This document shows positions 2,941-64,000 of a DNA stretch of 64,000 nt, piece by piece (the first letter of the stretch is position 1; each line of letters starts with the position of its first letter). The DNA is taken from NCBI RefSeq assembly GCF_009914755.1, contig NC_060947.1, one strand, 5' to 3'. Source of the DNA: the human T2T-CHM13v2.0 reference genome, Homo sapiens. The translations under genes were made by a program, and so were the position numbers. The notes under the pieces were generated by a model that did not search any database, was not told where the DNA came from, and saw nothing but the letters and a program-made list of their open reading frames with translations.

Positions 2941-5632
2941 TTAGTTTAAAGTCTGTTTTATCAGAGACTAGGATTGCAACCCCTGCCTTTTTTTTTCTGT
3001 CCATTTGCTTGGTAAACATTCCTGCATCCCTTTATTTTGAGCCTATGTGCATCTTTGCACGTGAGATGGGTCTCCTGAATACAGCACACTGATGGGTCTT
3101 CACTCTTTATCTAATTTGCCAGGCTGTGTCTTTTCATTGGGGCATTTAGCCCATTTGCATTTAAAATTAATAGTGTTATGTGTGAATTTGATCCTGTCAC
3201 CATGATGCTAGCTGGTTATTTTGCACATTAGTTGATGCAGTTTCTTCAGTGTCGTTGGTTCTTATTTTGGTATGTTTTTGCAGTGGTGGGTAACAAATTT
3301 TCCTTTCCATATTTAGTGCTTCCTTCAGGATCTCTTTTAAGGCAGGCCTGGTGGTGACAAAAATCCCTCAGCATTTGCTTTTCTGTAAAGGATTTTATTT
3401 CTCCTTCACTTATGAAGCTTAGTTGGCTGGATATGAAATTCTGGGTTGAAAATTCTTTTCTTTAAGAATGTTGAATATTGGTTCCCACTCTCTTCTGGCT
3501 TGTAGGGTTTCTGCCAAGAGATCCGCTGTTAGTCTGATGGGCTTTCCTTTGTGAGTACCCTGACCTTTCTCTCTGGTTGCCCTAAACATTTTTTCCTTCA
3601 TTTCAGTCTCAGTGAATCTGACAATTATGTGTCCTGGGGTTGCTTTTCTCAAGGAGTAGCTTAGTGGTGTTCTCTGTATTTCTTGAATTTGAATGTTGAC
3701 CTATCTTGCTAAATTGGGGAAGCTCTCTTGGATAATATCCTAAATTGTGTCTTCCAACTTGGTTCTATTCTCCCTGTCACTTTCAGGTACACCAATCAAT
3801 CATAGATTTGGTCTTTTCACATAGTCCCACATTTCTTGGAGGCTTTATTCCTTCGTTTTCTTTCTTTTTCTTCTGATCTTGTCTTTATGCTTTATTTCAT
3901 TTAGTTGATCTTTAATCTCTAATATCTTTTCTTCCACTTGATTGATTCAGCTACTGATACCTGTGTATGCTTCACAAAGTTCTCGTGCTGTGTTTTTCAG
4001 CTCCATCAGGCCATTTAAGTTCTTCTCTAAACTGGTTATTCTAGTTAACTGTTCCTGTAACCTTTTATCAAGGTTCTTAGCTTCCTTGCATTGGGTTACA
4101 GCATGCTCCTCTAGCTCAGAGGAGTTTGTTATTATGCACCTTCTGAGGCTTACTTCTGTCAATTCATCAATCTCATTCATTCTCCATCCAGTTTTGTTCC
4201 CTTGCTGGAGAGGAGTTGTAATACTTTGAAGCAGGGGCATTCTGGTTTTTGGAATTTTCAGCATTTTTGTGGTGGTTTTTCCTCATCTTCATGGATTTAT
4301 CTACCTTTGATCTTTGATGCTGAAAACCTTTGGATTGGGTTTTTGTGTGTGCGTCCTTTTTGTTGATGTTGATGTTATTGCCTTCTGTTTGTTAGTTTTC
4401 CTTCTAACAGTCAGGCCCTTCTTCTGCAGGTCTGCTGGAACTTGCTCGAGGTCCACTCTAGACCCTGTTTGCCTAGGTATCACCAGCAGAGTCTGCAGAA
4501 CAGCAAAGATTGCTGCCTGCTCCTTTCTATGGAAGCTTCATCCCAGGATGGCACCCACCTGATGCCAGCCAGAGCTCTCCAGTTTGAAGTGTCTGTCAAC
4601 CTCTGCTGGGAAATGTCTCCCAGTCAGGAGGCATGGGGTCAGGGACTCACTTGAGGAGGCAGTCTTTCCCTTAGCAGAGCTCGAGCACTGTGCTGGGAGA
4701 TTCACTGCTCTCTTCAGAGCTGGCAGGAAGGGATGTTTAAGTCTGCTGAAGCTGTGCCCATCAGCCACCCTTTCCCCCAGGTGCTCTCTCCTAGGGAGAT
4801 GGGAGTTTTATCTATAAACCCCTGACTGGGGCTGCTGTCTTTCTTTCAGAAATGCTCTGACCAGATAGGAGAAATCTAGAAAGGCAGTCTCACTACAGTG
4901 GCTTTGCCAGGCTGGAGTGGGTTCTGCCCAATCCGAACTTCCTGGCAGCTTTGTTTACACTGTGAGGGGAAAACTGCCTAGTCAAGCCTCAGTAATGGCA
5001 TATGCCCCTCCCCTCACCAAGCTGAAGCATACCATGTTTACTTCAGACTGCCGTGCTGGCAGCGAGAATTTCAAGCCAGTGGATCTTAGCTTGCTGGGCT
5101 TTTTGTGGGTGGGACCCACTAAGCTAGGCCACTTGGCTCCCTGGCTTCAGCCCCCTTTCGAGGAGAGTGAACTGTTCTGTCTTGCTGGTGTTCCAGGCCC
5201 CACTGTGGTATGAAAAAAAATTTCTGCAGCTAGCTCAGGGTCTGCCCAAATGGCTGCCCAGTTTTGTTCCTGAAACCCAGGGACTTGGTGGTGTAGACAT
5301 CCGGGGGAATCTCCTGGTCTGCAGGTTGAAAAACCATGGGAAATGTGTAGTATCTGGGCCAGATATAACCGTGCCTCACAGCACAGTCCCTCATGGCTTC
5401 CCTTGGGTAGGGGAGGGAGTTTCCTGACCCCTTGCACTTCCTGGGTGAGGCGACACCCCATCCTGCTTCTGCTTACCCTCCATGGGCTGCACCCACTGTC
5501 TAATCAGTCCCAAAGAGATGAGCTGGGTACCTCAATTGGAAATGCAGAAATCATGTACCTTCTGTGTTGGTCTCACTGGGAGTTGCAGATTGGAGTAGTT
5601 CCTATTTGGCCATCTTGCCAGTTCCCCCCTTT

Positions 5633-46754: not shown

Positions 46755-46920
46755 TAATAATAATGGTTAATATAGATTGAGCTTTTACAGTGGTCAGGGA
46801 CTTCGCTAAGTGTTTTCCAGGCATTAGTTTATTACAGCAGATTCTTGGGGTAGGTAATATTATTATTCCCTCATTCTAGATGAGGAAATGGAAGCTTGAA
46901 TAAGTGAAATTACTTGCTGG
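46755..46920 (-). mobile_element. MIR fragment
   Basis: ggtaggtaatattattattccctcattctagatgaggaaatggaagct. Confidence 0.6.
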
Positions 46921-48434
46921 GATGTTTGTAAAAAGATCTTTGCTCTGGAAGTCAGGAGGCTTCTGTGATACTGCTGCTAGTTTACTTTATAATTTTGTAT
47001 AAGTGGCTGTCCCTTTCCTTGCTTCAGTGTCTGAACCTGGAATTTTTTATGCGGTTTTTGAGACTCTAAGTTCATTGGGGTGGAATTTGGAAGGGTGGTC
47101 AAGCATGAATAGGACTAGAAGGGAACACAAATATTTTTTGCTCAAGACATTAGTCTCAGCTGTACCTCCATATGTCTTTTCCCTGCTTTACCCCTTCCTA
47201 CTTGTTCTCTTGCTCATGGCACTCATTCTCTTCCCTAGTTGTAGATTTAAGTTAAGTCCAGTAGGAACTTGACACACTCAGAAAATGGATGAAAACCCAA
47301 GGGGATGCTACTTTTGGGACCATTGTCTGAGCTTTTTTGGGTTACTGCCACCTGTCACAGTTTAAGAGATGTGGAGAGCCACTCATGGCTGTCAGAGGCT
47401 GTGTCAAGGAAACAATATTCTGGTAATGATTTTTATTTACCATGAGGGTTTGGTTTCCTCTTCTGGTGTCTACTTGGACTTCCCTAAGAATTAGTTACCT
47501 TGGTTCTTGGGCTTGGCATCAGCCCACAGAGCATGGAGCCAATCAAGTACCATAAGTCCTGCAGAGATTTAAATTTCCTGGTGGCAGCATTTCTGGCACA
47601 GGCTTATGTTTTCCTATGGTTACTTAAGCCCTTTATTAATGCACTCTGAGTTTCTCTCATGGTTTGGCTCCTCAAGAAGTCAGGCAGTAGCGTTCAAGGT
47701 ACGGGGAAGGTATCAGGTCAAGACAGAAATATTTGGCAGCTTTAGGGATTTTCTGTTTCCACTCTTAAGGTGTGCCCTGAATAAGAGCTGTAGAAGAGTC
47801 ATCTGGGGCTGACTTCTTTGAGGCCCCAAAGAGTCTGGCCTGGGCTTCAAGGAATCTGAGTCCTAGGGTATGCTCAGCCACGAACTCCCTGGGTGACCTT
47901 AGGCAGACAAATTCATTTCCCTGAATCTCTGTTTCCTCAAACATCTTCCATCTCAAACATTCTATAATTCATGAAAGCTGAATAGTACTGGAAATTCTTC
48001 TGCTCAGTATGATAATGATTTGAGCAGAGAAATGAACAGGCTGGGTAAAGTGTGACCTTCCCAGGGTACATAAAATGTTTTTCCAATTAAATGAACATTT
48101 CCTAAATCAGTTCCCAATTAGTGGAGCCAGTGTGTGTTAGCCTTGTGATGGGGCTGCATAAATAGCAATTCAGAATCCAGGAAGAAAGTGGCCAATAGGC
48201 CCACTCTGCTTCTTACCTGTCATAGCAAAAAAGGAGTATGGTGCTCAGAGCCGATCATCACATTTTAGAGAGGACACCATGAGGCTGGAGCTATTTCAGG
48301 GCCGTAGCTAAGGTGATGAGGGAACTCTGAACTGTGTCATATGAGGAAGAGCAGAATGGCCTGGGGATAAGTAACCAAGAGAAGACCTCCAGCAACATCT
48401 TGGCCCCTGGTTTTGGCTCCTATGGGGAAGAGGG

Positions 48435-48877
48435 TGTATTAGTTTGTTTTCTGTTGCCTATCAAAGAATGCCTGAAACTGGATAATTTATAAAGAGAAGG
48501 AATTTATCTCCTACAATTATAGAGGCTGAGAAGTCCAAGTTTGGGGGCTGTATCTGGTGAGGGCCTTCTTGCTGGTGGGGACTCTCTGCAGAGTCCTGAG
48601 GTAGCATTAATAAAGGGCATAAGGAACTCCAGAAAAACATCACATGGTGAGAGGGCTGAGTGTGCTTGCTCAGGTCTCTCATCCTCTTCTTATAAAGCTA
48701 CCAGGTCCACTGCCATGACGATCCATTAATCCATTAATCCATGAATGGATTGATCCATACATAAGGGCAAAGCCCTCATAACCCAAACACTTCTTAAAGG
48801 CCCTATCTTTCCATACTGCCACATTGAAGATTAAGGTATAACACATACAATTTTGGGGACACATTCAAACCATAACA
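48435..48877 (-). mobile_element. MST (MSTC/D-like MaLR) solo LTR
   Basis: tgtattagtttgttttctgttgcc...ttttggggacacattcaaaccataaca. Confidence 0.85.
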
Positions 48878-50097
48878 GAGGTGTGTTGTGGGGAAAATGG
48901 AGTGACTTCAAACCTGACCCAATAGCTATACTGCAGGTTCAGTAAATAGATGCTACCAAGGGACAGATTTCACACCAAAGTTCAGGAAAAATTTCAGAGT
49001 AAAATCAGTTTTATGTGGAATTAGATGGTTATAGATCTATAAACCAGAAGAAGATAATCTGAATTTCAGCTGGAGGAAATTTTGGACAAAAGCCTGGATC
49101 TGTTTAAGGGCACGGTCCTTGCACTGTTTGACCTCTAGGGAGAAATACAACTGAATTTGTACAAATGATGGGTGCACCAGGTAGCAGATGAGAGTGTTTT
49201 GACAAAGTGAGCTACTTAACCATGTATGGGAGTGCTAATGCATCTCTCTCTTAAGTATGTGTGAAAGCCCTAATGAAACTTCAATAAATACTCCTGAGAC
49301 TTCATTGGGAGAATAGAGATGGAGGTCTTGAAATATTGCATGGGAGTGAAATAAGAGAGATATTACATTTTCAGGGACCTCTCCAAAATTCCAATAATAT
49401 AAACTTTTATGTTTAACTTATGGGTTTAATTAATCTCCACATCTCAAATATCATTAATTCTGGAATAGAGCAAGGCATGTCACTTTACAGTTAATACAAA
49501 AGTGCCTGTCAAATCACATCAAATAGAAAATCCCAAATTATTGTGTCTCAGTGATATTCAGCATTGTTATGACATACAATAATCCCTCAGGCTACTTAGG
49601 TAGTCCTTTCACCAGAAATACATATCACAAGCATGTCCTTGTGGATCTTATTTAGTGTGGCTGCCATTAGTTTTGTGTCCAACACATAAAACCTATGTGT
49701 GACCTTTCCAGCCTAGATGAATAGAACACTTACTGACATATTGCTGATCTGCTTGACTTCTATGAAAGGCCTTCTTGGGAGACTCTGGAGTTTTTAGTTG
49801 AGCTGTTCTACACATGGGCCTGGGTTTTGCCCATGTTCACCTCAGCTTTCCTCTAAGCAGAACATAATGATCACAGTTTCCACATAGGGAATACCCTGGG
49901 GAAGGAACACATCTTCTAGGACCTGGGACTCAGGATACTGAGACAGACTCTTCACTCAGATGCCTAGAACATAGGAGATGGCAAACTTAACAGGCTGAAA
50001 TAAGGCAGCCTACATTTTTTGGTATAACCTCGTTCTTCATCTGTTAAAACTTCTTTAGGCTGCAGTGACCAAATGTATGGTCATTGACCTGCAGGCC

Positions 50098-50397
50098 TGT
50101 ATTAGACAGTTCAGGCTGCTATAACAAAGCAAAGTGGGTGGTTTATAAGAAACAGACATTTATTTCTCACAGTTCTGGAGGCTAGAAGTCCAAGACCAGT
50201 GTTTTGATGAAGATCCTCTTTCAGGTTGCAGAGTGCTGATTTCTCATTGTATACTCACATGGTTGAAAGAGAGAGAGCATGCCACCCTCATGACCTAAAT
50301 TTACCTCCCAAAGACTCCACCTACAAATGCCGTTAGACTGAGAATTAGATTTTAGCATATAAATGTTGATGGAATATAAAAATTCAGTCCAAAACAA
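50098..50397 (-). mobile_element. MLT1-type MaLR LTR, internally deleted
   Basis: tgtattag...atttatttctcacagttctggaggctagaagtccaagacc...aaaattcagtcc. Confidence 0.75.
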
Positions 50398-51589
50398 AAC
50401 CTCCCCAAAGTATTGCTGCTGAGTCACTTAGAAAACCTTTGTCTGAGTTCACCTTTTTTATTCTTTTTGCAAACTGGGTAGTAATTTGGAATGTTGTAGA
50501 GAGATGCATATTAGTTCTTGCCCAGAGCTAAGGTGTGAGATGGATCGCCCAAACTAAAAGAAGAATTTAGAATAAAAGCAAGATGCTCAAGTACTTCAAG
50601 TTCATGAGCCACATATTTCAGAAGAAAAATTGCAAGGTAATTCCAATACAAAGTGAAATCTACACCACATGTGAATCAGGAGACATGCAGCTAAATTCCA
50701 GAACGAGTTTAATGATGATGGAGGGCAAGGCAAAGATAAGCTGTACCTTGACTGATTAGGCTGATAAATCAGGCTTGTCTTGAATAACAAAGCTAAAGGA
50801 CAGAAAATGAGAAAGAAACATACCTGAAGTGATTTAAAGCCAGGATGTGATATAAAACTATTTACATACACGTATTGCTAAACTGAATAGGAGACACTTC
50901 CCAGGTAGTAAAAGGGTGGAGAAGAAAGTATTTATAAGTCAAATGACCTCTTTGTTTTTGATACAGTAGTTGGTGCCTACTAGGACTTGCTCTGGATATA
51001 AATAAATAAGAAGGCAAAAATTGAGAGGGTTGAGTCAAGCTGATCAGGCTAGAGAAAGATGCAAGAAAAGTTTCACAGATTCTCATTAATACAAGACATG
51101 TAAGATGAAAATAAACAAAGATAATCATTTTTGTGAAAAGACTCAGTAGATAACCTCACAGCTTCTTTTTCCGGCAGAGAATATGGATGTGCTAGGATTG
51201 AAGGCACTTGTCATCACCAATCTAATGGGCTCAACTGGGACAAGTGATTGCATTTTTCTTCTCAAATGGTGGGCTACATAACAAGAATTTAGCATTAGAC
51301 AGGTATGCCAGTGTTGCTGCTAGTGGAAAGTGCACCAATATACATGCTACTCCAGGATAAGGTTGGCAGATATGCTTTGGTCAAACACTGGCATGCACAA
51401 GGGACGAACAAACAAACGTAGACAGCCGTCATATCTTGCCATCAAGAACAAGATTTAAGAAAAGACCTGTGGCCGTGGTCATGTATGATGTAGCTCAATC
51501 ACCCCAGAAACAGAAGATGTTATTAAAAGTATAAGCTGATTCCAGTTTGGCTCTGGCAGAGTGAGGGCAGAAGAGAGGACAACATGTTG

Positions 51590-52270
51590 GAGGGGAAGCC
51601 AGAGAGTTAACCAGAGATTAAATCCTGTTGGCTCTTACCGGACAAGGACTGGGCTTTTACTCTGAGTGAGATCAGAAGCCATTGCTGGGCTGGGACCGGA
51701 GGAGATACACAGCTCACAAAACACATCAATACAGAGAATTCAAACTTCTGAAAAACATATTGGATGAAGAAATGAAGTCCAAATTAAAATGAGGAAGTCC
51801 AGTCAGATGACGAACTTGAACACAAAGAGCAAGCCATTGAGCACTAGTTGGCCACAGATGTGGATTTAAGTTTTCTAGCTGCCAAAATGTAAAGAGGGAA
51901 ACACGATCCTCTGCAGGACTCAACAGTATCCCTGAGATCGAATCTGACAAACTGCTCAGAAGGGGCACCTATGCTTTTCCCTGAGATGAATGTCTCCCAT
52001 CGTCAGATGTCAGATTCTGGATCTATTTTGACAAGAGAGCTCAAAGGATTTCTTCACAGATGGAAATGAGGGGTGAGTAAAACAGTGGCGTGAAGGATCA
52101 CCCTCAAGTCTATAGCATGAACAATTGGAAGGATAAGAGTGGCCTTAACTGTGAGGGGTGGGGCGAGGGGGGACGCTGCAGTGGGAGGAGGTTTCTAGGG
52201 GAAGATGGGAGAGTTCCATTTTTGACTTGTTAATTTGGGTTGACTCTCAGGCAATTTTCTCAGCGAATTA
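51590..52270 (-). mobile_element. L2 fragments (mirrored at about 61500-62180)
   Basis: gggcttttactctgagtgagatcagaagccattg; ggatctattttga...gagttccatttttgacttgttaatttg. Confidence 0.6.
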
Positions 52271-53557
52271 GAAAGGAAGGTCAGAGGCTGAATGTGAGGA
52301 GTCGGGAGGCAGTGTTGGAGGCTTGCAGAGAGAAAATAAGTTGTGAAATAGAAGGGTGAACGGAGACGAAGGCTTGAGAGAAATGAGTAGTTGGAAGATT
52401 TGGACTACAAACCTGGCAGAAAGATGTTTTGGTTTAAATGGATAGGGACCCTGGGTGTTTCCAGATCAGACAATGTTCATTCTTTATGATCCAGCCAGAA
52501 AACTGTGGCTTTTGCTAGCCTTTCCCACCTCTGAACACAGGTTTCCCCTTGCTGGTGAGGGTGGCGTGGAGAGATCCGAGTGAGGAAATAAGTTGTCAGT
52601 GTTTACGCTTATTTCTTCAGTCATGCTGAAGAGGCGGATAGGCCTAATACATAATAGGATAGAACACAATCCACCCGGACTTCCGCCTTATGCACAACTG
52701 CACTTTCAGTTTTGCTCAGAGAGATAGAGCTCACACAATTAGGTAATTGGGCCCAAATCTGAAAGTGAGAAACAGGCCAGAAAGGACACTCAGAGGATGA
52801 AAAGGGAAACCAGTAAGCCCCACTGTTTTATACACCGTTGTCATCATGGTTTTAACTTCATGCTGAGACATAGAATTCCTTAAACTATCACAGCCCTGGT
52901 CACTTGTGCCAATTCTACAAGGCCTCCAAAACCGCATAGGAGATACTGCACCGTGGGCCCATTCCAAACACTTATTCAGAATTAAAATTCCACTGGCTTT
53001 CCATTGATAGCACTAGAGGTCTGTCTGTGACACGCTGCTCCATTACAGCAAAGCAAAGCCCCATAATGACCTAATCCAGAAGGATAAGATCCCAGGACCC
53101 ATAGAACAAGGAGGCCAGAGGGAAGGCAGGCCACAAAGAAGAAGGAAACCAGACTTCCCCATCCCTCTGGGCTCCTGGGGGGGTCAGTGGAAAAAGGCCT
53201 TTAACCTAAGTGCTCAAGGCCCTAACCTAACAGCTTTTGTTTTTCACGCTGGAGCGCTGGCACTTCCTGACCCCGCTTAGTCCTTCTATTAGAATTTTGT
53301 ACTCTGATGCTAGTTTTCAGAGTATAGGAGCAACTGCAGGGAATGAAGCAGCAGACCTATCAATATTTTGTGGTGATCTAAGTCTCTGTTAATAAGCCTG
53401 AGACAAGGCAAAACCAGGAAGAAGCCTTGACCCTTATCAAGGTCATCAAAGCCATACAGGACCCTTCCTAATGTCTTCAACTGTCATTTTTGAAAGAAGC
53501 CGAGTCTGACCACCAAGTATAAATGGGTATAACATCCACCGCATTTCTTTGTCATAT

Positions 53558-54076
53558 TGTTACAGGAAAGGGGTCTTGATCCAGACCCCAAGAGAGGGTT
53601 CTTGGATCTCGCGCAAGAAATAATTCAGGGCGAGTTCACAGTGCAAAGCAAAAGCAAGTTTATTGAGAAAGCACAGTGGTGAAAGGGCAGCTACTCCATA
53701 GACAGAGTAGGACGTTCCCAAAAGTAAGAGGAGGAATGCGTCCACCCTAGGTACAATGCTTGTTATATGAGGAGATGTGCTCTGCTACAAGGGTTTGTGA
53801 TAGAGGATTAATTTTCTTAATTACTATGTTTTGCAAGAATCAGTGTTGTTATCTTTAAGGCAAAATTAGGAATGCCTTTCTTCTCCAGATATCGGAATAT
53901 CTGGACACTCCCAAGTCTGGGTCTGTTTAGTAAACGTTATTAATTTGTTCCCTTAACCGTAAACATCTAGAGGCTGGGAATACCTAACTTTCTGGGAATG
54001 CAGCCCAGCAAGCCTCAGCTTCATTTTCCTAGCCCTCACTCGGAATGGAGTCGCTCTGGTTCAAACGCCTCTGACA
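53558..54076 (-). mobile_element. MER41-family (ERV1) solo LTR, left-arm copy
   Basis: Reverse complement of 59698-60216; TSD ATAT. Confidence 0.85.
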
Positions 54077-54084
54077 ATATCACC

Positions 54085-54235
54085 CCGTTTTATTTTCTAT
54101 CACTTACCACTATCTGAAATTAAGTAGATAATTTGTTTACTCTCTGTCCCCACCCACTAGAATGAGAACGCGGCCCTTGCATCCTTACGTGTGTCTGGCA
54201 TATAAGGGGTGCTCAATGATTATTTGTTTCATGGA
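54085..54235 (+). mobile_element. L2 3' end (mirrored at about 59540-59690)
   Basis: cacttaccactatctgaaat...cactagaatg...gtctggcatataaggggtgctcaatgattatttgtt. Confidence 0.6.
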
Positions 54236-54339
54236 GGAACAGATTTATGGATGGCTGGGTGGATGACGATCTTAGAAGGGGTTCCAGGGCTAGCTGGCTT
54301 TCTGTTTCTCCCACTCAAGCACCCAAGCCCTGACCCACA

Positions 54340-55100
54340 AAGTAAAGGAACAGGCGAAACTTCTCGCCAAATAGCTTCAAGGCAGAAACTACGCAGCTGG
54401 CTTGGGAATTCCGTACAACGCGAACGCGCATGCACAGGCAGGACTGAGCGTGTCCATCTTCGCATTACTCCCGGAGATGACTCTCGGAAACGGTCCGAGG
54501 ACTAACGTCTTTCTCTTCCTCGCCCTCATTCCTCCCAGTAACGTCCGCTACAAAAGAAACCGTGCACAAAATAAACTCGGGCGGCGGGTAGAAAGGAGAC
54601 AGCCGAATTCCCTACACCCATGATCAACACGCCCACACCTCCCATCAGGCACGGCGCTCCCGCCTCCCCGAAGAGGCGGTGGAAAGTGGTGGTGGGGGGG
54701 GTGCTGGGGGAGGGCTGGCGGGGGGAGGGCCGGGGGAAGGAGCGGGGCGGGAACGTCCTTTTGCTACTGCTATGGCTTCCGGGGCAGCACTTCGGCAGAC
54801 CGCCCGCCTCCCAGTTGCAAATCGACTTCCGGGGCACCCCCACCGGCTGCCCGGTGGGTTCTCTGCTCGAACTTCTGGCGCTTTTCCCTTCCCGTTTATC
54901 TTGTTCAGGTCCCTCAGTGGACTGCTCCAGATCTAAAGAGCAGAAATTGGGCCGCAAAGAGAACGTCCTCCCAGACTTTCTCCGTCGCGGTGAAATTATG
55001 CCCGTTTGGTGGCAGTATGTATTCACAGATGCGTGCAGCTCTGCTCTTACCCCGCCCTTCGCGTTTAGAAAAAAAGCGCCGTTCCTCAGAGTCAAAACAA
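54340..55100. promoter_or_regulatory. CpG island / promoter-like element, left-arm copy
   Basis: GC- and CpG-rich against an AT-rich background. Contains ACTTCCGG (ETS), CGCGCATGCACA (NRF1-like), TCTCGCCAAA (E2F-like), GC boxes and G-runs. Confidence 0.8.
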
Positions 55101-55295
55101 AGTTTCTTTCCGCTGTAGAGGCACAGCTTTTAGGGTGGCCTACTAACTCCCGCTTTTTCTTTTCTGAAATCTCTGTGCCAATCTGATGGACAGAAGAGCG
55201 ACAAAAAATATTTTTAACGTGAGATTCTTTGTTGACTAGCCTGCTTGTAAACTTTCTGACATATGCCTTTTTTTTTTTTTTTTTTTCCATAGGGC

Positions 55296-55495
55296 TGTGA
55301 ACCCCTGATATCTGAGAGGTGTCTCAGTCAATTTAGAAAGTTTATTTTGCCAACGTTAAGGACCCGCCCATGACAGCCTCAGGAGGTCCTGACGACATGT
55401 GCCCAAGGTGGTCAGGGCACAGCCTGCTTCCATACATTTTAGTGAGACATGAAACATCAATCATTTTATGTAAGATGTAAAGTGGTTCGGTCGGG
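55296..55495 (-). mobile_element. MER4-type LTR 3' portion, left-arm copy
   Basis: tgtgaacccctgatatctgagaggtgtctcagtcaatttagaaagtttattttgcc...cacagcctg. Confidence 0.8.
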
Positions 55496-56493
55496 GAAGG
55501 ATCTTGTGCTGTGAGAGGATTTGACCTTGGCGTGTGTAATGGTAGATGAGAGCTACAAAATTACAAGTGGCTGAAGACAGTTTACAGGAAATGGTCATAG
55601 CTGCCCCCCTCTTTTTTCCCCTCTTAGGAAGTTATTGTTTAGGATCCGAATTCTAATTTGGAGATGCATTCTACAGTGTCTTCTCCATTGCTTTTCCTCC
55701 CCAAATTAATCTTGTTGTTTTGTGTGTGCATCTGCGTGAAGAGCTGTACTGTTGTTTTCATAGATACATGAGAGACTGTTTCCTGACCTCCAAAGGGAAA
55801 GGGCATTTTGCTCTTCCCAGCAGAAAGGCACCCCTGGGTGACTTGGAGCCCAGTGGGAGTGTCTGGGGGTGTTGACCCCCGTGACAACCAGCAGCCCTAC
55901 AGGGAACCTACAACAAAATAGTTTTAAAAAGCTCATCCAGGAAATGCCTATTAGAGCTGATCACTTTGCTTTGACCCTCCCATAGGTGCTAGACCTCCAG
56001 AGAGAGAAAATGAGACACATAAGGTGGAAATTACTCTGTGGTGACACACTGTGGAGTCCTGCCCACAACCCGGATACTTGGACCCACTCCACTGAAACCT
56101 TAGGCCACAGCTAAGTTCCTTCCTTCAAAAAATAAATCTAAGAAAGAGGAAAAACAGGAATGACCTCCTTTCAGGCACTCTGTTGGTTTTATGGCGCCTC
56201 TTCTTGCGAATGTTTGTGTAAAATTGACATACTGTGGTCCTTTTCTGCACAATTACGGCAAGGAAAATTCAGATCGCAAAGGTCCACCTGTGAGTATAAA
56301 GTTCCTAAGTTCTCTGTGTATGGCTCTGCTTTCTTTTTTGCCTGCATTAAGTCTGCTGTTACATTTCTACTGAGATAAAATCCACCATTTGCATCCATCC
56401 ATTTCATTTTGTTATTGTTTTTGTAAACCAATGAGTTTGTATTAATATCTCATGACTAGAGTTCTGAAGTAAAAGCTATAGGATTTTTGGTTG

Positions 56494-57184
56494 TGTGGCA
56501 GGGCAGGTCTCACAGCTGAACAGGGAGGCCTCCTTAACAACTGTTTCAGCACTGACTGGTTAAATATTAAAAGCTGAAAGAGCCAGTGCCCTTATACAAA
56601 GGCTGGGATTTAACAAAAGCCCACCAAGAGTTTTGCCTATGTCCTCCTGGGCCTTGAAGCATGACAAGATAAAGGAATTCTTAACAGGACCCCTTTGGGA
56701 TTAAACAAGTTTTTATTGGAGGTCTGAAGAAACTCCCCAGACCTCCACAAACAAGTTTTACTGGTGGTCTAAAGGAACTTCTAAAACCTCTATGGATTTA
56801 CAGCAGACAAGATAAGGGTAATCACCCCAAGCACCTGGACCCATCTAGATTAAGTAAATTTACTGAGGCTCCAGAGGAAGGTCTTCAAAACTGAGAACTT
56901 AGTTGTAGATTAAAAGAAGTTAATAACTTATGTCTTTAGATGAATGCAAAGTTATATGTAAACATATAGCTTAAAAGGTATATAAGCTTTGGAAAACTTT
57001 GTAATTTTGAGTTGGTCTGACGACAGTCTCTCCACAGGGAGAAGGCCTCGAAAATATTGGCAGACCAAGTAAAAATTACAAAGTTTTCTGAGCTTATATA
57101 AACTCTCTTCTTTCCCAGTTCATCTGCATCTCATTACCGGGTAGCAGGAATAAGTAGGCTGACCCTCAGTTTGGACCGGGAACA
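56494..57184 (+). mobile_element. MER39-like solo LTR
   Basis: tgtggcagggcaggtctcac...gagccagtgcccttatacaaaggctggg...ccctcagtttggaccgggaaca; imperfect TSD GTTG/GCTG. Confidence 0.8.
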
Positions 57185-57436
57185 GCTGTGTAAGTGTGTA
57201 TGTGTGTGTTTATATGTATGTACACGTATTTTGTTGTGTTTTGGGCCACAAGGTACCACACTGGCTTAACAAGTACTCATAAATTAATTAGCCCAAATGC
57301 TTTTCATCTTTATATGACTTAAGTAAAATCTGTCATATGCTTGCTTAAAAATTATTGGTAAACTAATAACAGAAATTTCTTAAAAATTGCCAGCATACAT
57401 TTTTGCATTTATTAATCAAGCAATTTCATACTTATC

Positions 57437-57823
57437 AAAATGTGGCACATATACACCATGGAATACCATGCAACCATAAAAAATGATGAGTTCATGTCCT
57501 TTGTAGGGACATGGATGAAATTGGAAATCATCATTCTCAGTAAACTATCGCAAGGACAAAAAACCAAACACCGCATGTTCTCACTCATAGATGGGAATTG
57601 AACAATGAGAACACATGGACACAGGAAGGGGAACATCACACTCTGGGGACTGTTGTGGGGTGGGGGAAGGGGGGAGGGGGGAGGGACAGCATTAGGAGAT
57701 ATACCTAATGCTAAATGACGAGTTAATGGGTGCAGCACACCAGCATGGCACATGTATACACATATGTAACTAACCTGCACATTGTGCACATGTACCCTGA
57801 ACCTTTAATAATTAAAAAAAAAA
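57437..57823 (+). mobile_element. 5'-truncated L1PA2/3 3' end
   Basis: aaaatgtggcacatatacaccatggaata...ctaatgctaaatgacgagttaatgggtgcagcacacc followed by an A tail. Confidence 0.92.
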
Positions 57824-58195
57824 TTTGGCATGCGGGTTACAAAACTATAAATCCGGCAAAAACAGAATTTTTGCTTGTATAATTTTTGATAAAAAAATTA
57901 ATATTGGATTAATGAAAATCGCTAAATATCCAATTATTCAGTAAAATAACCATATATTTAATCTTAAGGCTTTTACTTAGGTAAACACCTGAAATTCACA
58001 GGCTATAAAATGGTTGAAAAGGAAATAAAATGACTATCGCAGTTTCATAAATAATCTAGGTAAACTATTAGAAAAAGTAGGTAAATGTAATGAGATAAAT
58101 GCTTTTAGACAAAACTTGTTATAATTTAGATTCTGAAGTTATAGTAAGATAAGTTATGACATTAACTGGGTATTTTTCAATTTAAAAAATATGGA

Positions 58196-58479
58196 AAGCT
58201 AATCAGAAACTCGAATGCAACCAGTGTGTCTTTATCTACCTATGACCTTCCTAGTCACCTCACCAATTCAAGTTGTCCCACCTTTAGAGACCGAACCAGT
58301 ATACATCTTACATATTGATGTTTCATGTCTCCCTAAAATGTATGGAAGCAGGCTGTGCCCTGACCACCTTGGGCACGTGTCGTCAGGACCTCCTCAGGCT
58401 GTCATGGGCGCGTCCTTAACGTTGGCAAAATAAACTTTCTAAATTGACTGAGACACCTCTCAGATATCAGGGGTTCACA
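58196..58479 (+). mobile_element. MER4-type LTR 3' portion, right copy
   Basis: Ends ggcaaAATAAActttctaaattgactgagacacctctcagatatcaggggttcaca. Confidence 0.8.
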
Positions 58480-58673
58480 GCCCTATGGAAAAAAAAAAAA
58501 AAAAAAGGCATATGTCAGAAAGTTTACAAGCAGGCTAGTCAACAAAGAATCTCACGTTAAAAATATTTTTTGTCGCTCTTCTGTCCATCAGATTGGCACA
58601 GAGATTTCAGAAAAGAAAAAGCGGGAGTTAGTAGGCCACCCTAAAAGCTGTGCCTCTACAGCGGAAAGAAACT

Positions 58674-59434
58674 TTGTTTTGACTCTGAGGAACGGCGCTT
58701 TTTTTCTAAACGCGAAGGGCGGGGTAAGAGCAGAGCTGCACGCATCTGTGAATACATACTGCCACCAAACGGGCATAATTTCACCGCGACGGAGAAAATC
58801 TGGGAGGACGTTCTCTTTGCGGCCCAATTTCTGCTCTTTAGATCTGGAGCAGTCCACTGAGGGACCTGAACAAGATAAACGGGAAGGGAAAAGCGCCAGA
58901 AGTTCGAGCAGAGAACCCACCGGGCAGCCGGTGGGGGTGCCCCGGAAGTCGATTTGCAACTGGGAGGCGGGCGGTCTGCCGAAGTGCTGCCCCGGAAGCC
59001 ATAGCAGTAGCAGAAGGACGTTCCCGCCCCGCTCCTTCCCCCGGCCCTCCCCCCGCCAGCCCTCCCCCAGCACCCCCCCCACCACCACTTTCCACCGCCT
59101 CTTCGGGGAGGCGGGAGCGCCGTGCCTGATGGGAGGTGTGGGCGTGTTGATCATGGGTGTAGGGAATTCGGCTGTCTCCTTTCTACCCGCCGCCCGAGTT
59201 TATTTTGTGCACGGTTTCTTTTGTAGCGGACGTTACTGGGAGGAATGAGGGCGAGGAAGAGAAAGACGTTAGTCCTCGGACCGTTTCCGAGAGTCATCTC
59301 CGGGAGTAATGCGAAGATGGACACGCTCAGTCCTGCCTGTGCATGCGCGTTCGCGTTGTACGGAATTCCCAAGCCAGCTGCGTAGTTTCTGCCTTGAAGC
59401 TATTTGGCGAGAAGTTTCGCCTGTTCCTTTACTT
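58674..59434. promoter_or_regulatory. CpG island / promoter-like element, right-arm copy
   Basis: Mirror of 54340-55100: CCGGAAGT at about 58942, CCGGAAGC at about 58992, TGTGCATGCGCG at about 59338 and TTTGGCGAGA at about 59403. Confidence 0.8.
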
Positions 59435-59697
59435 TGTGGGTCAGGGCTTGGGTGCTTGAGTGGGAGAAACAGAAAGCCAGCTAGCCCTGGAACCCCTTCT
59501 AAGATCGTCATCCACCCAGCCATCCATAAATCTGTTCCTCCATGAAACAAATAATCATTGAGCACCCCTTATATGCCAGACACACGTAAGGATGCAAGGG
59601 CCGCGTTCTCATTCTAGTGGGTGGGGACAGAGAGTAAACAAATTATCTACTTAATTTCAGATAGTGGTAAGTGATAGAAAATAAAACGGGGTGATAT

Positions 59698-60216
59698 TGT
59701 CAGAGGCGTTTGAACCAGAGCGACTCCATTCCGAGTGAGGGCTAGGAAAATGAAGCTGAGGCTTGCTGGGCTGCATTCCCAGAAAGTTAGGTATTCCCAG
59801 CCTCTAGATGTTTACGGTTAAGGGAACAAATTAATAACGTTTACTAAACAGACCCAGACTTGGGAGTGTCCAGATATTCCGATATCTGGAGAAGAAAGGC
59901 ATTCCTAATTTTGCCTTAAAGATAACAACACTGATTCTTGCAAAACATAGTAATTAAGAAAATTAATCCTCTATCACAAACCCTTGTAGCAGAGCACATC
60001 TCCTCATATAACAAGCATTGTACCTAGGGTGGACGCATTCCTCCTCTTACTTTTGGGAACGTCCTACTCTGTCTATGGAGTAGCTGCCCTTTCACCACTG
60101 TGCTTTCTCAATAAACTTGCTTTTGCTTTGCACTGTGAACTCGCCCTGAATTATTTCTTGCGCGAGATCCAAGAACCCTCTCTTGGGGTCTGGATCAAGA
60201 CCCCTTTCCTGTAACA
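59698..60216 (+). mobile_element. MER41-family (MER41C/D-like) solo LTR, right-arm copy
   Basis: tgtcagaggcgtttgaaccagagcgactcc...gagatccaagaaccctctcttggggtctggatcaagacccctttcctgtaaca; TSD ATAT at 59694-59697 and 60217-60220. Confidence 0.85.
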
Positions 60217-62683
60217 ATATGACAAAGAAATGCGGTGGATGTTATACCCATTTATATTTGGTGGTCAGACTCGGCTTCTTTCAAAAATGACAGTTGAAGA
60301 CATTAGGAAGGGTCCTGTATGGCTTTGATGACCTTGATAAGGGTCAAGGCTTCTTCCTGGTTTTGCCTTGTCTCAGGCTTATTAACAGAGACTTAGATCA
60401 CCACAAAATATTGATAGGTCTGCTGCTTCATTCCCTGCAGTTGCTCCTATACTCTGAAAACTAGCATCAGAGTACAAAATTCTAATAGAAGGACTAAGCG
60501 GGGTCAGGAAGTGCCAGCGCTCCAGCGTGAAAAACAAAAGCTGTTAGGTTAGGGCCTTGAGCACTTAGGTTAAAGGCCTTTTTCCACTGACCCCCCCAGG
60601 AGCCCAGAGGGATGGGGAAGTCTGGTTTCCTTCTTCTTTGTGGCCTGCCTTCCCTCTGGCCTCCTTGTTCTATGGGTCCTGGGATCTTATCCTTCTGGAT
60701 TAGGTCATTATGGGGCTTTGCTTTGCTGTAATGGAGCAGCGTGTCACAGACAGACCTCTAGTGCTATCAATGGAAAGCCAGTGGAATTTTAATTCTGAAT
60801 AAGTGTTTGGAATGGGCCCACGGTGCAGTATCTCCTATGCGGTTTTGGAGGCCTTGTAGAATTGGCACAAGTGACCAGGGCTGTGATAGTTTAAGGAATT
60901 CTATGTCTCAGCATGAAGTTAAAACCATGATGACAACGGTGTATAAAACAGTGGGGCTTACTGGTTTCCCTTTTCATCCTCTGAGTGTCCTTTCTGGCCT
61001 GTTTCTCACTTTCAGATTTGGGCCCAATTACCTAATTGTGTGAGCTCTATCTCTCTGAGCAAAACTGAAAGTGCAGTTGTGCATAAGGCGGAAGTCCGGG
61101 TGGATTGTGTTCTATCCTATTATGTATTAGGCCTATCCGCCTCTTCAGCATGACTGAAGAAATAAGCGTAAACACTGACAACTTATTTCCTCACTCGGAT
61201 CTCTCCACGCCACCCTCACCAGCAAGGGGAAACCTGTGTTCAGAGGTGGGAAAGGCTAGCAAAAGCCACAGTTTTCTGGCTGGATCATAAAGAATGAACA
61301 TTGTCTGATCTGGAAACACCCAGGGTCCCTATCCATTTAAACCAAAACATCTTTCTGCCAGGTTTGTAGTCCAAATCTTCCAACTACTCATTTCTCTCAA
61401 GCCTTCGTCTCCGTTCACCCTTCTATTTCACAACTTATTTTCTCTCTGCAAGCCTCCAACACTGCCTCCCGACTCCTCACATTCAGCCTCTGACCTTCCT
61501 TTCTAATTCGCTGAGAAAATTGCCTGAGAGTCAACCCAAATTAACAAGTCAAAAATGGAACTCTCCCATCTTCCCCTAGAAACCTCCTCCCACTGCAGCG
61601 TCCCCCCTCGCCCCACCCCTCACAGTTAAGGCCACTCTTATCCTTCCAATTGTTCATGCTATAGACTTGAGGGTGATCCTTCACGCCACTGTTTTACTCA
61701 CCCCTCATTTCCATCTGTGAAGAAATCCTTTGAGCTCTCTTGTCAAAATAGATCCAGAATCTGACATCTGACGATGGGAGACATTCATCTCAGGGAAAAG
61801 CATAGGTGCCCCTTCTGAGCAGTTTGTCAGATTCGATCTCAGGGATACTGTTGAGTCCTGCAGAGGATCGTGTTTCCCTCTTTACATTTTGGCAGCTAGA
61901 AAACTTAAATCCACATCTGTGGCCAACTAGTGCTCAATGGCTTGCTCTTTGTGTTCAAGTTCGTCATCTGACTGGACTTCCTCATTTTAATTTGGACTTC
62001 ATTTCTTCATCCAATATGTTTTTCAGAAGTTTGAATTCTCTGTATTGATGTGTTTTGTGAGCTGTGTATCTCCTCCGGTCCCAGCCCAGCAATGGCTTCT
62101 GATCTCACTCAGAGTAAAAGCCCAGTCCTTGTCCGGTAAGAGCCAACAGGATTTAATCTCTGGTTAACTCTCTGGCTTCCCCTCCAACATGTTGTCCTCT
62201 CTTCTGCCCTCACTCTGCCAGAGCCAAACTGGAATCAGCTTATACTTTTAATAACATCTTCTGTTTCTGGGGTGATTGAGCTACATCATACATGACCACG
62301 GCCACAGGTCTTTTCTTAAATCTTGTTCTTGATGGCAAGATATGACGGCTGTCTACGTTTGTTTGTTCGTCCCTTGTGCATGCCAGTGTTTGACCAAAGC
62401 ATATCTGCCAACCTTATCCTGGAGTAGCATGTATATTGGTGCACTTTCCACTAGCAGCAACACTGGCATACCTGTCTAATGCTAAATTCTTGTTATGTAG
62501 CCCACCATTTGAGAAGAAAAATGCAATCACTTGTCCCAGTTGAGCCCATTAGATTGGTGATGACAAGTGCCTTTCATCTTAGCATATTTATATTGCCTGC
62601 TGGAAAAAAAAATGTGTTAAACTACCTACCGGTAGCCATTCATCTCTGCTTTTCTCTTTGCATCTGATTCCAACACACTTTCA

Positions 62684-63419
62684 TGTTACATGTAGTTAGA
62701 CACACATGAGAGGGGCAGGAGAGTCCTTTTCCCCAACACCCACCGGGAATGTCACGTGATCGGGTGATGGTTCAACAATTATCACATTGCCTGTCTAAAA
62801 ATGGTACTTTGGCACCTGGAGTCAGGGAGAGATAATCTCCTGCTCATCTACAGCTGTTAACATTAACGTGGTTAACTGAATGCCAGGTAGAAACAAAAAG
62901 AGCTTCCAATAAAATCAAGTATTGTGGGACTGAGCTCAAGCATTGTGGGAGTGAGCTCAAGCATGTGAATTAAGACACAAAATGACGGAGTATGACCTTC
63001 CTATTGACACTTCACCAGAAAAGTGAAGAAAGCCTCAGGCGGGAATCCATACAACTTCCTAAACCCACTGTGCATGCTCACCTCCCAAGGGTAAGGAGGG
63101 TACTGTGCATGGGGCAGCACAGTACCCATGGGAAGAATCATGGGAAATGAGCCAGTCTATGAAGTTCCAGGATCAAGGTTAAACACCACACTTGAGCTTC
63201 ATATGCCCGCTTGGGCCTCTTCCAAGTGTACTTTCTTTTATGTTCTAAACGCTTTTTAAATAAATTTCCACTCCTGCTCTGAAACTTGCCTCGGTCTCTT
63301 TTTCTGCCTTCTGCCTCTCAGTGGAATTCTTTCTTCTGAGAAGGCAAGAATTAAGGTTGCTGCAGACCCGTGTCTGGATTCGCTGCTGGTGGTAGCTCAG
63401 ATACCTTACCCCGGTCACA
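62684..63419 (+). mobile_element. MER50-like solo LTR
   Basis: TG...CA ends with TSD TTCA; catgagaggggcaggagag; gaggcaagaatt-like 3' region followed by gttgctgcagacccg. Confidence 0.75.
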
Positions 63420-63593
63420 TTCACAGTCCCTTTCTCCCGACTAACCCGTTTTGACTGTTTACTCCCTATTTGTAATATCTCCAGCAACCTAATCTGGGTT
63501 TTAGAAATGGAGTATTAAATATACCAATGGCTATATTTTCAGGGGCATTGTGACATTTCTAAGACATCACTATCTTGAAAAATCCAGCCTATT

Positions 63594-64000
63594 GACACCA
63601 CACGTCTACAACTATCTGATCTTCGACAAACCTGACAAAAACAAGCTATGAGGAAACAATTCCCTATTTAATAAATAAAAATAAAAAGGAATAAAAAGCG
63701 TTTAGAACAAAAATCTAGGAAAACTGGCTAGCCATATGCAGAAAACAGAAACTGGACCCCTTCCTTATACCTTACACAAAAATTAACTCAAGATGGATTA
63801 AACCCTTAAAGGTAAAAGTTAAAACCATAAAAACCCTAGAAACATACCTAGGCAATACCATTCAGGACACAGGCAAGGGCAAATACTTTATGACTAAAAT
63901 GCCAAAAGCAATTGCAACAAAAGCCAAAATTGACAAATGGAATATAATTAAACTAAACAACTTCTGCACAGCAAAAGAAACTGCCATCAGAGTGCACAGG
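63594..64000 (+). mobile_element. L1PA ORF2 fragment running off the window end
   Basis: tacaactatctgatcttcgacaaacctgacaaaaacaagc; aactggacccc; aggcaataccattcaggaca. Confidence 0.9.

What the first reader, a model, noticed from the sequence alone, without database searches (positions are those of the whole stretch)
51201..62573. 4.26-kb near-perfect inverted repeat around a 2.85-kb spacer: candidate flip-flop inversion
The arms 51201-55461 and 58314-62573 are reverse complements. In the core I found only a few differences by eye (53517 G vs 60257 T, 54761 T vs 59013 G, 54976 C vs 58798 A, and T19 vs A18 in a homopolymer); this was not an exhaustive comparison. Established knowledge is that such high-identity inverted repeats mediate recurrent NAHR inversion of the spacer and are enriched on the X. 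From unverified recollection, the geometry resembles the polymorphic inversion HsInv0403 near PBDC1 at Xq13.3, so it may already be catalogued.
Basis: partly seen in the sequence, partly recalled or inferred. Interest (0 to 1): 0.8.

Follow-up and report, generated by a model that had tools for sequence, protein, structure and literature searches.

The report
Known X-linked flip-flop inversion HsInv0403
This is a real pair of nearly identical 4.3-kb inverted repeats around a 2.8-kb spacer upstream of PBDC1, and it is the already catalogued and experimentally validated human inversion polymorphism HsInv0403, so it is ordinary rather than new.

Summary
The arms 51163-55492 and 58289-62611 are reverse complements. 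A 4163-bp core (51201-55363 / 58412-62573) differs by 3 substitutions and one homopolymer base. The non-homologous spacer is 2796 bp.

Aguado et al. 2014 (PMC3961182) list HsInv0403 on chrX with IRs of 4331/4323 bp, breakpoint intervals of 4164/4162 bp and an inverted region of 2796 bp. Their HindIII-site 26-mers and iPCR primers map exactly. An in-silico iPCR on the assembled sequence gives their Std fragments and products (10.1/8.2 kb; 364/225 bp). An in-silico flipped version gives their Inv values (9.9/8.4 kb; 350/239 bp). So this haplotype carries the Std/O1 orientation.

The two papers report both orientations in humans (O2 0.475 globally), chimpanzees and gorillas. They also report SNPs shared between orientations, no gene affected, and no selection or eQTL signal.

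The mechanism is intrachromatid NAHR between the arms, with gene conversion keeping them alike.

Additions made here: each arm holds a CpG island, the inner boundary lies inside an LTR-like repeat, and the arm core has only two copies genome-wide.

Novelty: already known.

The parts
51163..55492 (.). Left arm, full extent of homology (published IR1, 4331 bp in hg18)
   Evidence: Aguado Table S1 row
51201..55363 (.). Left arm near-identical core (published breakpoint interval BP1, 4164 bp): 3 substitutions and 1 homopolymer indel against the right core
   Evidence: for 4164/4162
55493..58288 (.). Non-homologous spacer, 2796 bp; the segment that is always flipped. It holds the single HindIII site used in the published assays (56984-56989)
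   Evidence: '2796' in Aguado Table 3 passage
58289..62611 (.). Right arm, full extent of homology (published IR2, 4323 bp)
58412..62573 (.). Right arm near-identical core (published BP2, 4162 bp)
54400..55199 (.). CpG island in the left arm (200-bp bins with GC 0.49-0.69 and CpG observed/expected 0.61-1.29)
   Evidence: unique to the two arms in the genome
58600..59399 (.). Mirror CpG island in the right arm
55295..55500 (-). LTR-like interspersed repeat, truncated copy (about 200 of about 300 bp) that ends at the inner boundary of the left arm
   Evidence: sequence
58192..58480 (+). The same LTR-like repeat, longer copy (about 290-300 bp) running about 100 bp past the arm boundary into the spacer
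   Evidence: sequence
55268..55286 (.). T19 homopolymer (A18 at 58489-58506 in the right arm); the only indel in the core
46892..46897 (.). HindIII site A of the published iPCR assay (primer A1 at 47070-47089 on the minus strand). Site D lies outside the window, at window-equivalent 65197
56818..57141 (.). Published primers B1 (56818, +) and C1 (57122-57141, -) flanking the spacer HindIII site. Their arrangement gives the AB and CD (Std/O1) products

Best explanation
The feature is the catalogued human polymorphic inversion HsInv0403 at Xq13.3, about 20 kb upstream of PBDC1. Two 4.3-kb inverted copies of a mostly unique intergenic segment flank a 2.8-kb spacer. Homologous recombination between the two arms within one chromatid (NAHR) flips the spacer together with whatever part of the arms lies inside the crossover point. 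No DNA is gained or lost. The arms are long relative to the spacer (published IR/inversion ratio about 1.4) and nearly identical, so the flip happens repeatedly and both orientations are common. Non-crossover outcomes of the same pairing (gene conversion) keep the 4.16-kb cores almost identical, while the arm edges have diverged. The haplotype in this window carries the Std/O1 orientation, the same as hg18. No gene is involved and no functional effect is known. Shown here: the structure, the identity with the published locus, and the orientation of this haplotype. Taken from papers: both orientations in three species, allele frequencies, shared SNPs. Inferred: NAHR as the mechanism, and gene conversion.
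For: Structure.

Identity with HsInv0403: Aguado et al. 2014 Table 1 passage and Table S1 row give chrX hg18 IRs 75278068-75282398 (4331) and 75285195-75289517 (4323), and BP intervals of 4164/4162. The window gives 4330/4323 and 4163-4164/4162. The gap between IRs is 2796 bp, equal to the '2796' for the inverted region in their Table 3 passage. One constant offset maps all eight hg18 coordinates onto window features within 1-2 bp.

Oligos: 11 of 12 published oligos map exactly once in the window plus the next 4 kb: 3 HindIII-site 26-mers, 6 of 7 primers, and 2 MLPA probe target parts. The ape-only primer D3 was not found.

In-silico HindIII iPCR: the assembled sequence gives AB 10092 bp / 364-bp product and CD 8213 bp / 225 bp. 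The flipped sequence gives AC 9893 / 350 and BD 8412 / 239. The published values are 10.1, 8.2, 9.9 and 8.4 kb and 364, 225, 350 and 239 bp (Fig. 3 legend).

Polymorphism, from papers: iPCR genotypes of 9 people include Std/Std, Std/Inv and Inv/Inv. Inv frequency is 0.26 with 14/14 consistent transmissions. Chimpanzee and gorilla are both Std/Inv. Giner-Delgado et al. 2019 source data give class NAHR, 546/551 genotyped, 0 errors in 116 checks, global O2 0.475, chimpanzee 0.46, gorilla 0.33, 4 of 10 variants shared and 0 fixed between orientations, ancestral state 'ND (Recurrent)'.

Gene conversion: 3 substitutions in 4163 bp of core, against 6 substitutions and a 6-bp indel in the inner 129 bp and 10 in the outer 38 bp.
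Against: Only one haplotype is available to me, so I saw neither the opposite orientation nor any crossover product; polymorphism rests on the two papers. [quoted passage not shown] Giner-Delgado's recurrence-event count for it is NA. Recurrence within humans is therefore inferred mainly from shared variants and from polymorphism in three species, not counted. IR1 is 4330 bp here against 4331 published, and the BP gap is 3047 against 3048. These are 1-bp differences that I attribute to indel variation without having tested it.
Confidence: 0.95

Rival explanations
1. A single old inversion event, kept as a trans-species polymorphism or spread by long gene-conversion tracts, rather than repeated NAHR flipping.
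For: Aguado et al. leave a long gene-conversion tract open for this locus. No recurrence events could be counted for it (NA in Giner-Delgado source data). Maximum r2 with a neighbouring variant is fairly high for a NAHR inversion (0.64).
Against: Both orientations segregate at intermediate frequency in humans, chimpanzees and gorillas. Balancing-selection tests (NCD1, NCD2) are 'None'. Between orientations, 0 variants are fixed and 4 of 10 are shared. The arms offer 4.16 kb of 99.9% identical substrate 2.8 kb apart.
Confidence: 0.04
2. A small functional X palindrome kept by selection: the duplicated CpG islands drive an unannotated transcript pair (for example testis-biased), and the flip is a by-product.
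For: Each arm carries an approximately 800-bp CpG island found nowhere else in the genome. The hub's RefSeq annotation places enhancer features at 58319-59137 and 55461-55995. Large X palindromes are reported to be preserved through their genes (Jackson et al. 2021 passages).
Against: No gene is annotated (hub annotation). None of 20 stop-to-stop frames of at least 70 aa in the left arm and spacer hits Pfam at E <= 0.1 (3 of the 23 frames listed were not submitted). No Rfam family matches. The 265-aa open frame in the island overlaps long frames on both strands, as expected for 60-69% GC, and has no relative elsewhere in the genome. HsInv0403 has no row in the LCL or GTEx eQTL tables of Giner-Delgado et al.. 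The arms are half the length of the smallest palindrome in the Jackson set (8 kb).
Confidence: 0.05
3. Assembly artefact, or two independent insertions of one transposable element in opposite orientation.
For: None beyond the general difficulty of assembling near-identical repeats.
Against: hg18 has the same structure to within 1 bp, and the structure was confirmed by iPCR at both breakpoints in people. The arm core is present only twice in the genome, with only short internal TE fragments having other copies. The paper describes the IRs as unique sequence plus parts of several TEs.
Confidence: 0.005

Closest known systems
HsInv0403 (InvFEST identifier; Aguado et al. 2014 PLoS Genet, PMC3961182; Giner-Delgado et al. 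2019 Nat Commun, PMC6748972)
   Same: Same locus. IR lengths, breakpoint intervals, spacer length, restriction map, primer sites and product sizes all match.
   Different: Nothing of substance differs. This haplotype has the Std/O1 orientation, whereas the paper notes that hg19 shows the opposite one. There are 1-bp length differences.
Other small X-linked NAHR inversions in the same studies, e.g. HsInv0393 (4.7-kb IRs, ARMCX6) and HsInv0389 (FLNA-EMD, 11.3-kb IRs)
   Same: Inverted near-identical repeats; polymorphic in humans and apes; SNPs shared between orientations.
   Different: Those involve genes at or inside the breakpoints. HsInv0403 has none (Table 2 passage: 'no', 'no').
Large X-chromosome palindromes P1-P26 (Jackson et al. 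2021, PMC8327919; Warburton et al. 2004, recalled)
   Same: Arm-to-arm identity above 99%; spacer inversion by intrachromatid NAHR; instability around the inner arm and spacer.
   Different: Arms are 4.3 kb against 8-140 kb. No protein-coding gene lies in the arms or spacer, whereas 21 of 26 palindromes have arm genes.
Inversion 'toggling' loci of Porubsky et al. (preprint 10.1101/2021.12.20.472354)
   Same: Same concept: recurrent NAHR flips between inverted repeats, strongly enriched on the X.
   Different: Those loci are typically hundreds of kb and flanked by large SDs. I found no mention of this locus in the main text.

Membership tests
HsInv0403 (specific catalogued inversion) | Inverted repeats of 4331 and 4323 bp separated by 2796 bp on chrX, with breakpoint intervals of 4164/4162 bp | tested here: met
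   Window: 51163-55492 (4330), 58289-62611 (4323), gap 2796, cores 4163-4164/4162
HsInv0403 (specific catalogued inversion) | Published HindIII-site sequences and iPCR/MLPA oligos map uniquely and give the published fragment and product sizes | tested here: met
   11 of 12 oligos found once. AB 10092/364, CD 8213/225, AC 9893/350, BD 8412/239 against 10.1/8.2/9.9/8.4 kb and 364/225/350/239 bp
HsInv0403 (specific catalogued inversion) | Genomic position at Xq13.3 upstream of PBDC1 (hg18 chrX:75.28 Mb) | tested here: inconclusive
   The hub annotation places the window at chrX:74.52 Mb of T2T-CHM13 with PBDC1 19.8 kb after the right arm. No hg18 or GRCh38 sequence or liftover is at hand, so the position agrees only through the oligo and length matches
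NAHR-mediated recurrent (toggling) inversion | Flanking inverted repeats of more than 90% identity | tested here: met
   99.42% over 4327 columns; core about 99.9%
NAHR-mediated recurrent (toggling) inversion | Both orientations present in the population | not testable with these tools
   Only one haplotype is held. Reported in print: 9-person iPCR panel with all three genotypes; O2 0.475 in 546 genotyped people
NAHR-mediated recurrent (toggling) inversion | Independent origins: variants shared between orientations, polymorphism in other apes | not testable with these tools
   Reported: 4 of 10 variants shared and 0 fixed; chimpanzee 0.46, gorilla 0.33. The authors note a gene-conversion alternative
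Large X-chromosome palindromes (Jackson 2021 set) | Arms of at least 8 kb | tested here: not met
   Arms are 4.3 kb; the smallest arm in the set is 8 kb
Large X-chromosome palindromes (Jackson 2021 set) | Protein-coding, often testis-biased, gene family in the arms or spacer | tested here: not met
   No gene annotated (hub). 0 of 20 frames hit Pfam; no Rfam hit. Expression could not be tested
Segmental duplication (at least 1 kb and at least 90% identity; definition recalled) | Two copies of at least 1 kb at 90% identity or more that are not simply a high-copy repeat | tested here: met
   Two copies only, genome-wide. [quoted passage not shown]

The most novel reading that the evidence does not exclude
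The locus may keep a readable fossil of how the inverted duplication arose. The inner arm boundary cuts an LTR-like repeat that continues only on the right side, which would make the left arm the derived copy. The outer 38 bp show a strand-biased cluster: 7 of the 10 mismatches are G on the left against A on the right. That cluster could be a scar of error-prone or deaminated single-stranded DNA at the original junction. A separate possibility is that the two arm CpG islands, together with the split enhancer annotation, make the flip a regulatory toggle near PBDC1.
Probability: 0.08. Interest if true: 0.3.

Novelty: already known. Interest (0 to 1): 0.1.

Why it matters
It matters little as a discovery. 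The inversion has been catalogued, validated by iPCR and iMLPA, and genotyped in hundreds of people and in apes since 2014-2019. No gene, expression or selection effect has been reported for it.

It is a clean textbook case of a small, gene-free, recurrently flipping X-linked inverted repeat. It is useful as a positive control for inversion callers.

It is also a reminder that reference assemblies differ in orientation here. This haplotype is Std/O1, and the paper says hg19 is the opposite. That difference can split lifted-over annotations.

Tried and rejected
- **Coding potential.** Five ATG-started ORFs of at least 80 aa and 23 stop-to-stop frames of at least 70 aa were listed. 20 of the 23 were scanned against Pfam, with 0 hits at E <= 0.1. 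The 3 not sent were short frames overlapping the CpG island (54548-54763, 54914-55129, 55657-55875). The 265-aa frame has no match in the genome outside the two arms, apart from one weak out-of-frame self hit. A coding gene is rejected.
- **Structured RNA.** 0 Rfam matches at gathering score in 50000-64000.
- **Alu at the inner boundary.** I first took the repeat next to the T19 run for an Alu. It has no other copy in the window, and its sequence ends like an LTR, with an AATAAA signal and a terminal CA. The LTR reading is my own. The family names MER41C and MER4A come from the paper's footnote, not from a repeat library.
- **Repeat-mediated outer boundary.** The left flank is unique. On the right, an old repeat starts about 70 bp beyond the arm end. 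Nothing is shared, so there is no evidence for this.
- **Literature linking PBDC1 with an inversion.** None of the 15 listed papers holds 'PBDC1'. Only 3 papers in the library hold 'HsInv0403' in the main text.
- **Porubsky preprint.** The main text has no Xq13 or chrX-7x call; its supplements are closed.
Full report
**Observation.**
- The repeat finder reports one inverted pair in 48000-64000: 51163-55285 against 58489-62611, 4123 nt without gaps.
- blastn of the left half against the right half gives a single alignment, 51166-55492 against 62608-58289. It spans 4327 columns at 99.42%, with 18 mismatches, 2 gap openings and E = 0.
- A global alignment lists every difference. From 51201 to 55363 (4163 bp) there are only three substitutions (53517/60257, 54761/59013, 54976/58798) and one base of length difference in a homopolymer. 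The homopolymer is T19 at 55268-55286 against A18 at 58489-58506 (read).
- Homology then passes a 6-bp indel (55461-55466) and ends at 55492/58289.
- Outward it continues for 38 more bases (51163-51200) with 10 mismatches.
- The strictly non-homologous spacer is 55493-58288, 2796 bp.
- In the whole window, this is the only one of 4 inverted pairs of at least 300 nt that exceeds 82% complementarity.
- In the 3.1-Gb assembly the arm core exists exactly twice. A 2-kb probe (52000-54000) and a 1.16-kb probe (54300-55460) each find the two arms full-length. All other rows cover only a short interspersed repeat at one end of the probe.

**What it is.**

Aguado et al. 2014 (PMC3961182; I read passages and supplementary table rows, not the whole text) list HsInv0403 on chrX. 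In hg18 the breakpoint intervals are 75278106-75282269 and 75285318-75289479. The IRs are described as 'TEs/SDs', 4.3/4.3 kb, and the entry is marked validated.
- Their Table S1 row gives IRs 75278068-75282398 (4331 bp) and 75285195-75289517 (4323 bp). It names HindIII as the enzyme, with fragments of 10.1, 8.2, 9.9 and 8.4 kb.
- Their Table 3 passage gives 2796 bp for the inverted region.
- Giner-Delgado et al. 2019 source data repeat 3048, 4164/4162 and 4331/4323.
- The window gives 4330 and 4323 for the arms, 2796 for the gap, 4163-4164 and 4162 for the cores, and 3047 between them.
- One constant offset maps all eight hg18 coordinates to window features within 1-2 bp.

**Test with the published oligos.**
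- In the window alone, 7 of 10 oligos mapped. The three D-side ones were missing, as expected if site D lies beyond base 64000.
- I fetched the next 4 kb of the same contig. After that, 11 of 12 oligos mapped exactly once. Only D3, a primer designed for non-human primates, was not found.
- HindIII sites lie at 46892, 56984 and 65197.
- An in-silico digest, self-ligation and PCR on the assembled sequence gives AB = 10092 bp with a 364-bp product, and CD = 8213 bp with a 225-bp product.
- The same procedure on a copy flipped between mirror points inside the cores gives AC = 9893 bp / 350 bp and BD = 8412 bp / 239 bp.
- The published values are 10.1, 8.2, 9.9 and 8.4 kb and 364, 225, 350 and 239 bp (Fig. 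3 legend).
- The locus is therefore HsInv0403, and this haplotype carries the Std (= O1, hg18) orientation. The O1 'DC' MLPA probe halves of Giner-Delgado et al. map in the corresponding arrangement.
- The paper notes that hg19 shows the opposite orientation.

**What is in print about it.**

From Aguado et al. (passages and table rows):
- In nine people, iPCR gave Std/Std, Std/Inv and Inv/Inv genotypes.
- In their larger panel the Inv frequency was 0.26 (69 chromosomes), heterozygosity was 0.30, and 14 of 14 transmissions were consistent.
- No gene lies at the breakpoints or inside the inversion.
- Chimpanzees and gorillas are both Std/Inv, and the ancestral state is 'Unknown'.
- A high proportion of SNPs inside the inversion is shared between orientations. 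[quoted passage not shown]

From Giner-Delgado et al. (supplementary rows):
- Class NAHR, with an IR/inversion ratio of 1.42.
- 546 of 551 samples were genotyped by iMLPA, with 0 errors in 116 checks.
- Global O2 frequency is 0.475, with group values of 0.65, 0.748, 0.221 and 0.328. I did not see the column labels. From the table layout and sample totals I infer Africa, East Asia, Europe and South Asia.
- Maximum r2 with a neighbouring variant is 0.64.
- 4 of 10 variants are shared and 0 are fixed between orientations.
- Chimpanzee frequency is 0.46 and gorilla 0.33. Orangutan is O1.
- The ancestral state is 'ND (Recurrent)', and the recurrence-event count is NA.
- FST and NCD tests are 'None'.
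- HsInv0403 has no occurrence in the LCL or GTEx eQTL files.
- Files 13-18 of that paper's supplements were not searched.

A 2026 preprint still uses the inversion as a benchmark for imputation.

**Mechanism.** Jackson et al. 2021 state that NAHR between palindrome arms within one chromatid inverts the spacer (passage). The Porubsky et al. preprint describes recurrent 'toggling' between inverted repeats and a strong X enrichment (passages).

Here the substrate is 4.16 kb at about 99.9% identity, 2.8-3.0 kb apart.

The identity profile is 3 substitutions in 4163 bp of core. That compares with 6 substitutions plus a 6-bp indel in the inner 129 bp, and 10 in the outer 38 bp. This is what arm-to-arm gene conversion confined to the core would produce. 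Both orientations segregate in human, chimpanzee and gorilla, so the repeats predate their split. Unconverted arms would then be expected to differ at dozens of sites. This last step is inference from general knowledge of ape divergence, not a computation made here.

**Anatomy added here.**
- **CpG islands.** Each arm carries an approximately 800-bp CpG island near its inner end, at 54400-55199 and 58600-59399. The 200-bp bins have GC 0.49-0.69 and observed/expected CpG 0.61-1.29. The islands are unique to the two arms.
- **Inner boundary.** It lies inside an approximately 300-bp interspersed repeat that reads like the 3' part of an LTR. Against six genomic copies, the left-arm copy stops at 55488-55500 in 6 of 6 primary hits. 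The right-arm copy runs on to 58192-58200 in 4 of 6 and to 58267-58272 in 2 of 6. There are two possible readings. Either the right arm plus spacer is the parental context and the left arm is the derived copy, or a later deletion trimmed the left inner edge. Jackson et al. report such instability around spacers.
- **Outer boundary.** It is not in a shared repeat. Seven of its 10 mismatches are G on the left against A on the right.
- **No gene or RNA.** No coding or RNA gene emerges: 0 of 20 frames hit Pfam, there are 0 Rfam hits, and the CpG-island frame has no paralogue.
- **Split enhancer annotation.** The hub's RefSeq line gives 'enhancer 55461-55995,58319-59137'. If the spacer is flipped, these two intervals become adjacent to within about 5 bp. 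That is what a lift-over of one contiguous element from a reference with the opposite orientation would give. This is inference only. I could not see the record or GRCh38.

**Comparison and verdict.** The feature is a member of the catalogued inversion HsInv0403; all testable defining features are met. It works like the larger X palindromes and toggling inversions, but it does not qualify as one of the Jackson palindromes, because its arms are 4.3 kb against a minimum of 8 kb and no gene is present.

Nothing here is new beyond small descriptive details: the orientation of this haplotype, the arm CpG islands, and the LTR-embedded boundary. Novelty is 'already known', and interest is low.

**Limits.** I had no second human haplotype, no ape genome, no GRCh38, no InvFEST database and no repeat library. 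bioRxiv supplements are closed. Orientation polymorphism, recurrence and TE family names therefore rest on the cited papers.

Noticed in passing
window 54400-55199 and 58600-59399: Each arm holds an approximately 800-bp CpG island (GC up to 0.69, CpG observed/expected up to 1.29) close to its inner end. The sequence occurs nowhere else in the genome. No gene is annotated there, and long open frames on both strands look compositional.
   Followed up: partly
window 55295-55500 and 58192-58480: The inner boundary of the inverted repeat falls inside an approximately 300-bp LTR-like interspersed repeat. The right copy continues about 100 bp into the spacer, and the left copy stops at the boundary. 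This suggests either that the left arm is the derived copy or that a later deletion trimmed the left inner edge.
   Followed up: partly
window 51163-51200 vs 62574-62611: The outermost 38 bp of homology carry 10 mismatches, 7 of them G (left) against A (reverse complement of right). The next 2316 bp carry none. This is a strand-biased cluster at the outer junction. Its direction cannot be told without an outgroup.
   Followed up: no
window 55461-55995 and 58319-59137 (hub annotation): The two RefSeq enhancer intervals become contiguous, to within about 5 bp, if the spacer is flipped. This fits one feature lifted over from a reference carrying the opposite orientation. It is inference only.
   Followed up: no
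window 56703-56790: A 45-bp unit repeated 1.9 times (79% matches) lies about 100-180 bp to the left of the centre of symmetry of the spacer.
   Followed up: no
window 53555-54000 (mirror 59774-60219): An approximately 445-bp interspersed repeat inside the arms has many genomic copies at 87-91% identity. It is presumably one of the LTR families named in the paper's footnote.
   Followed up: no
window 57412-57804, minus strand: A 130-aa stop-to-stop frame lies in the masked spacer repeat 57344-57909. It has no Pfam hit. From recall, its translation resembles frames seen in LINE-1 3' ends.
   Followed up: no
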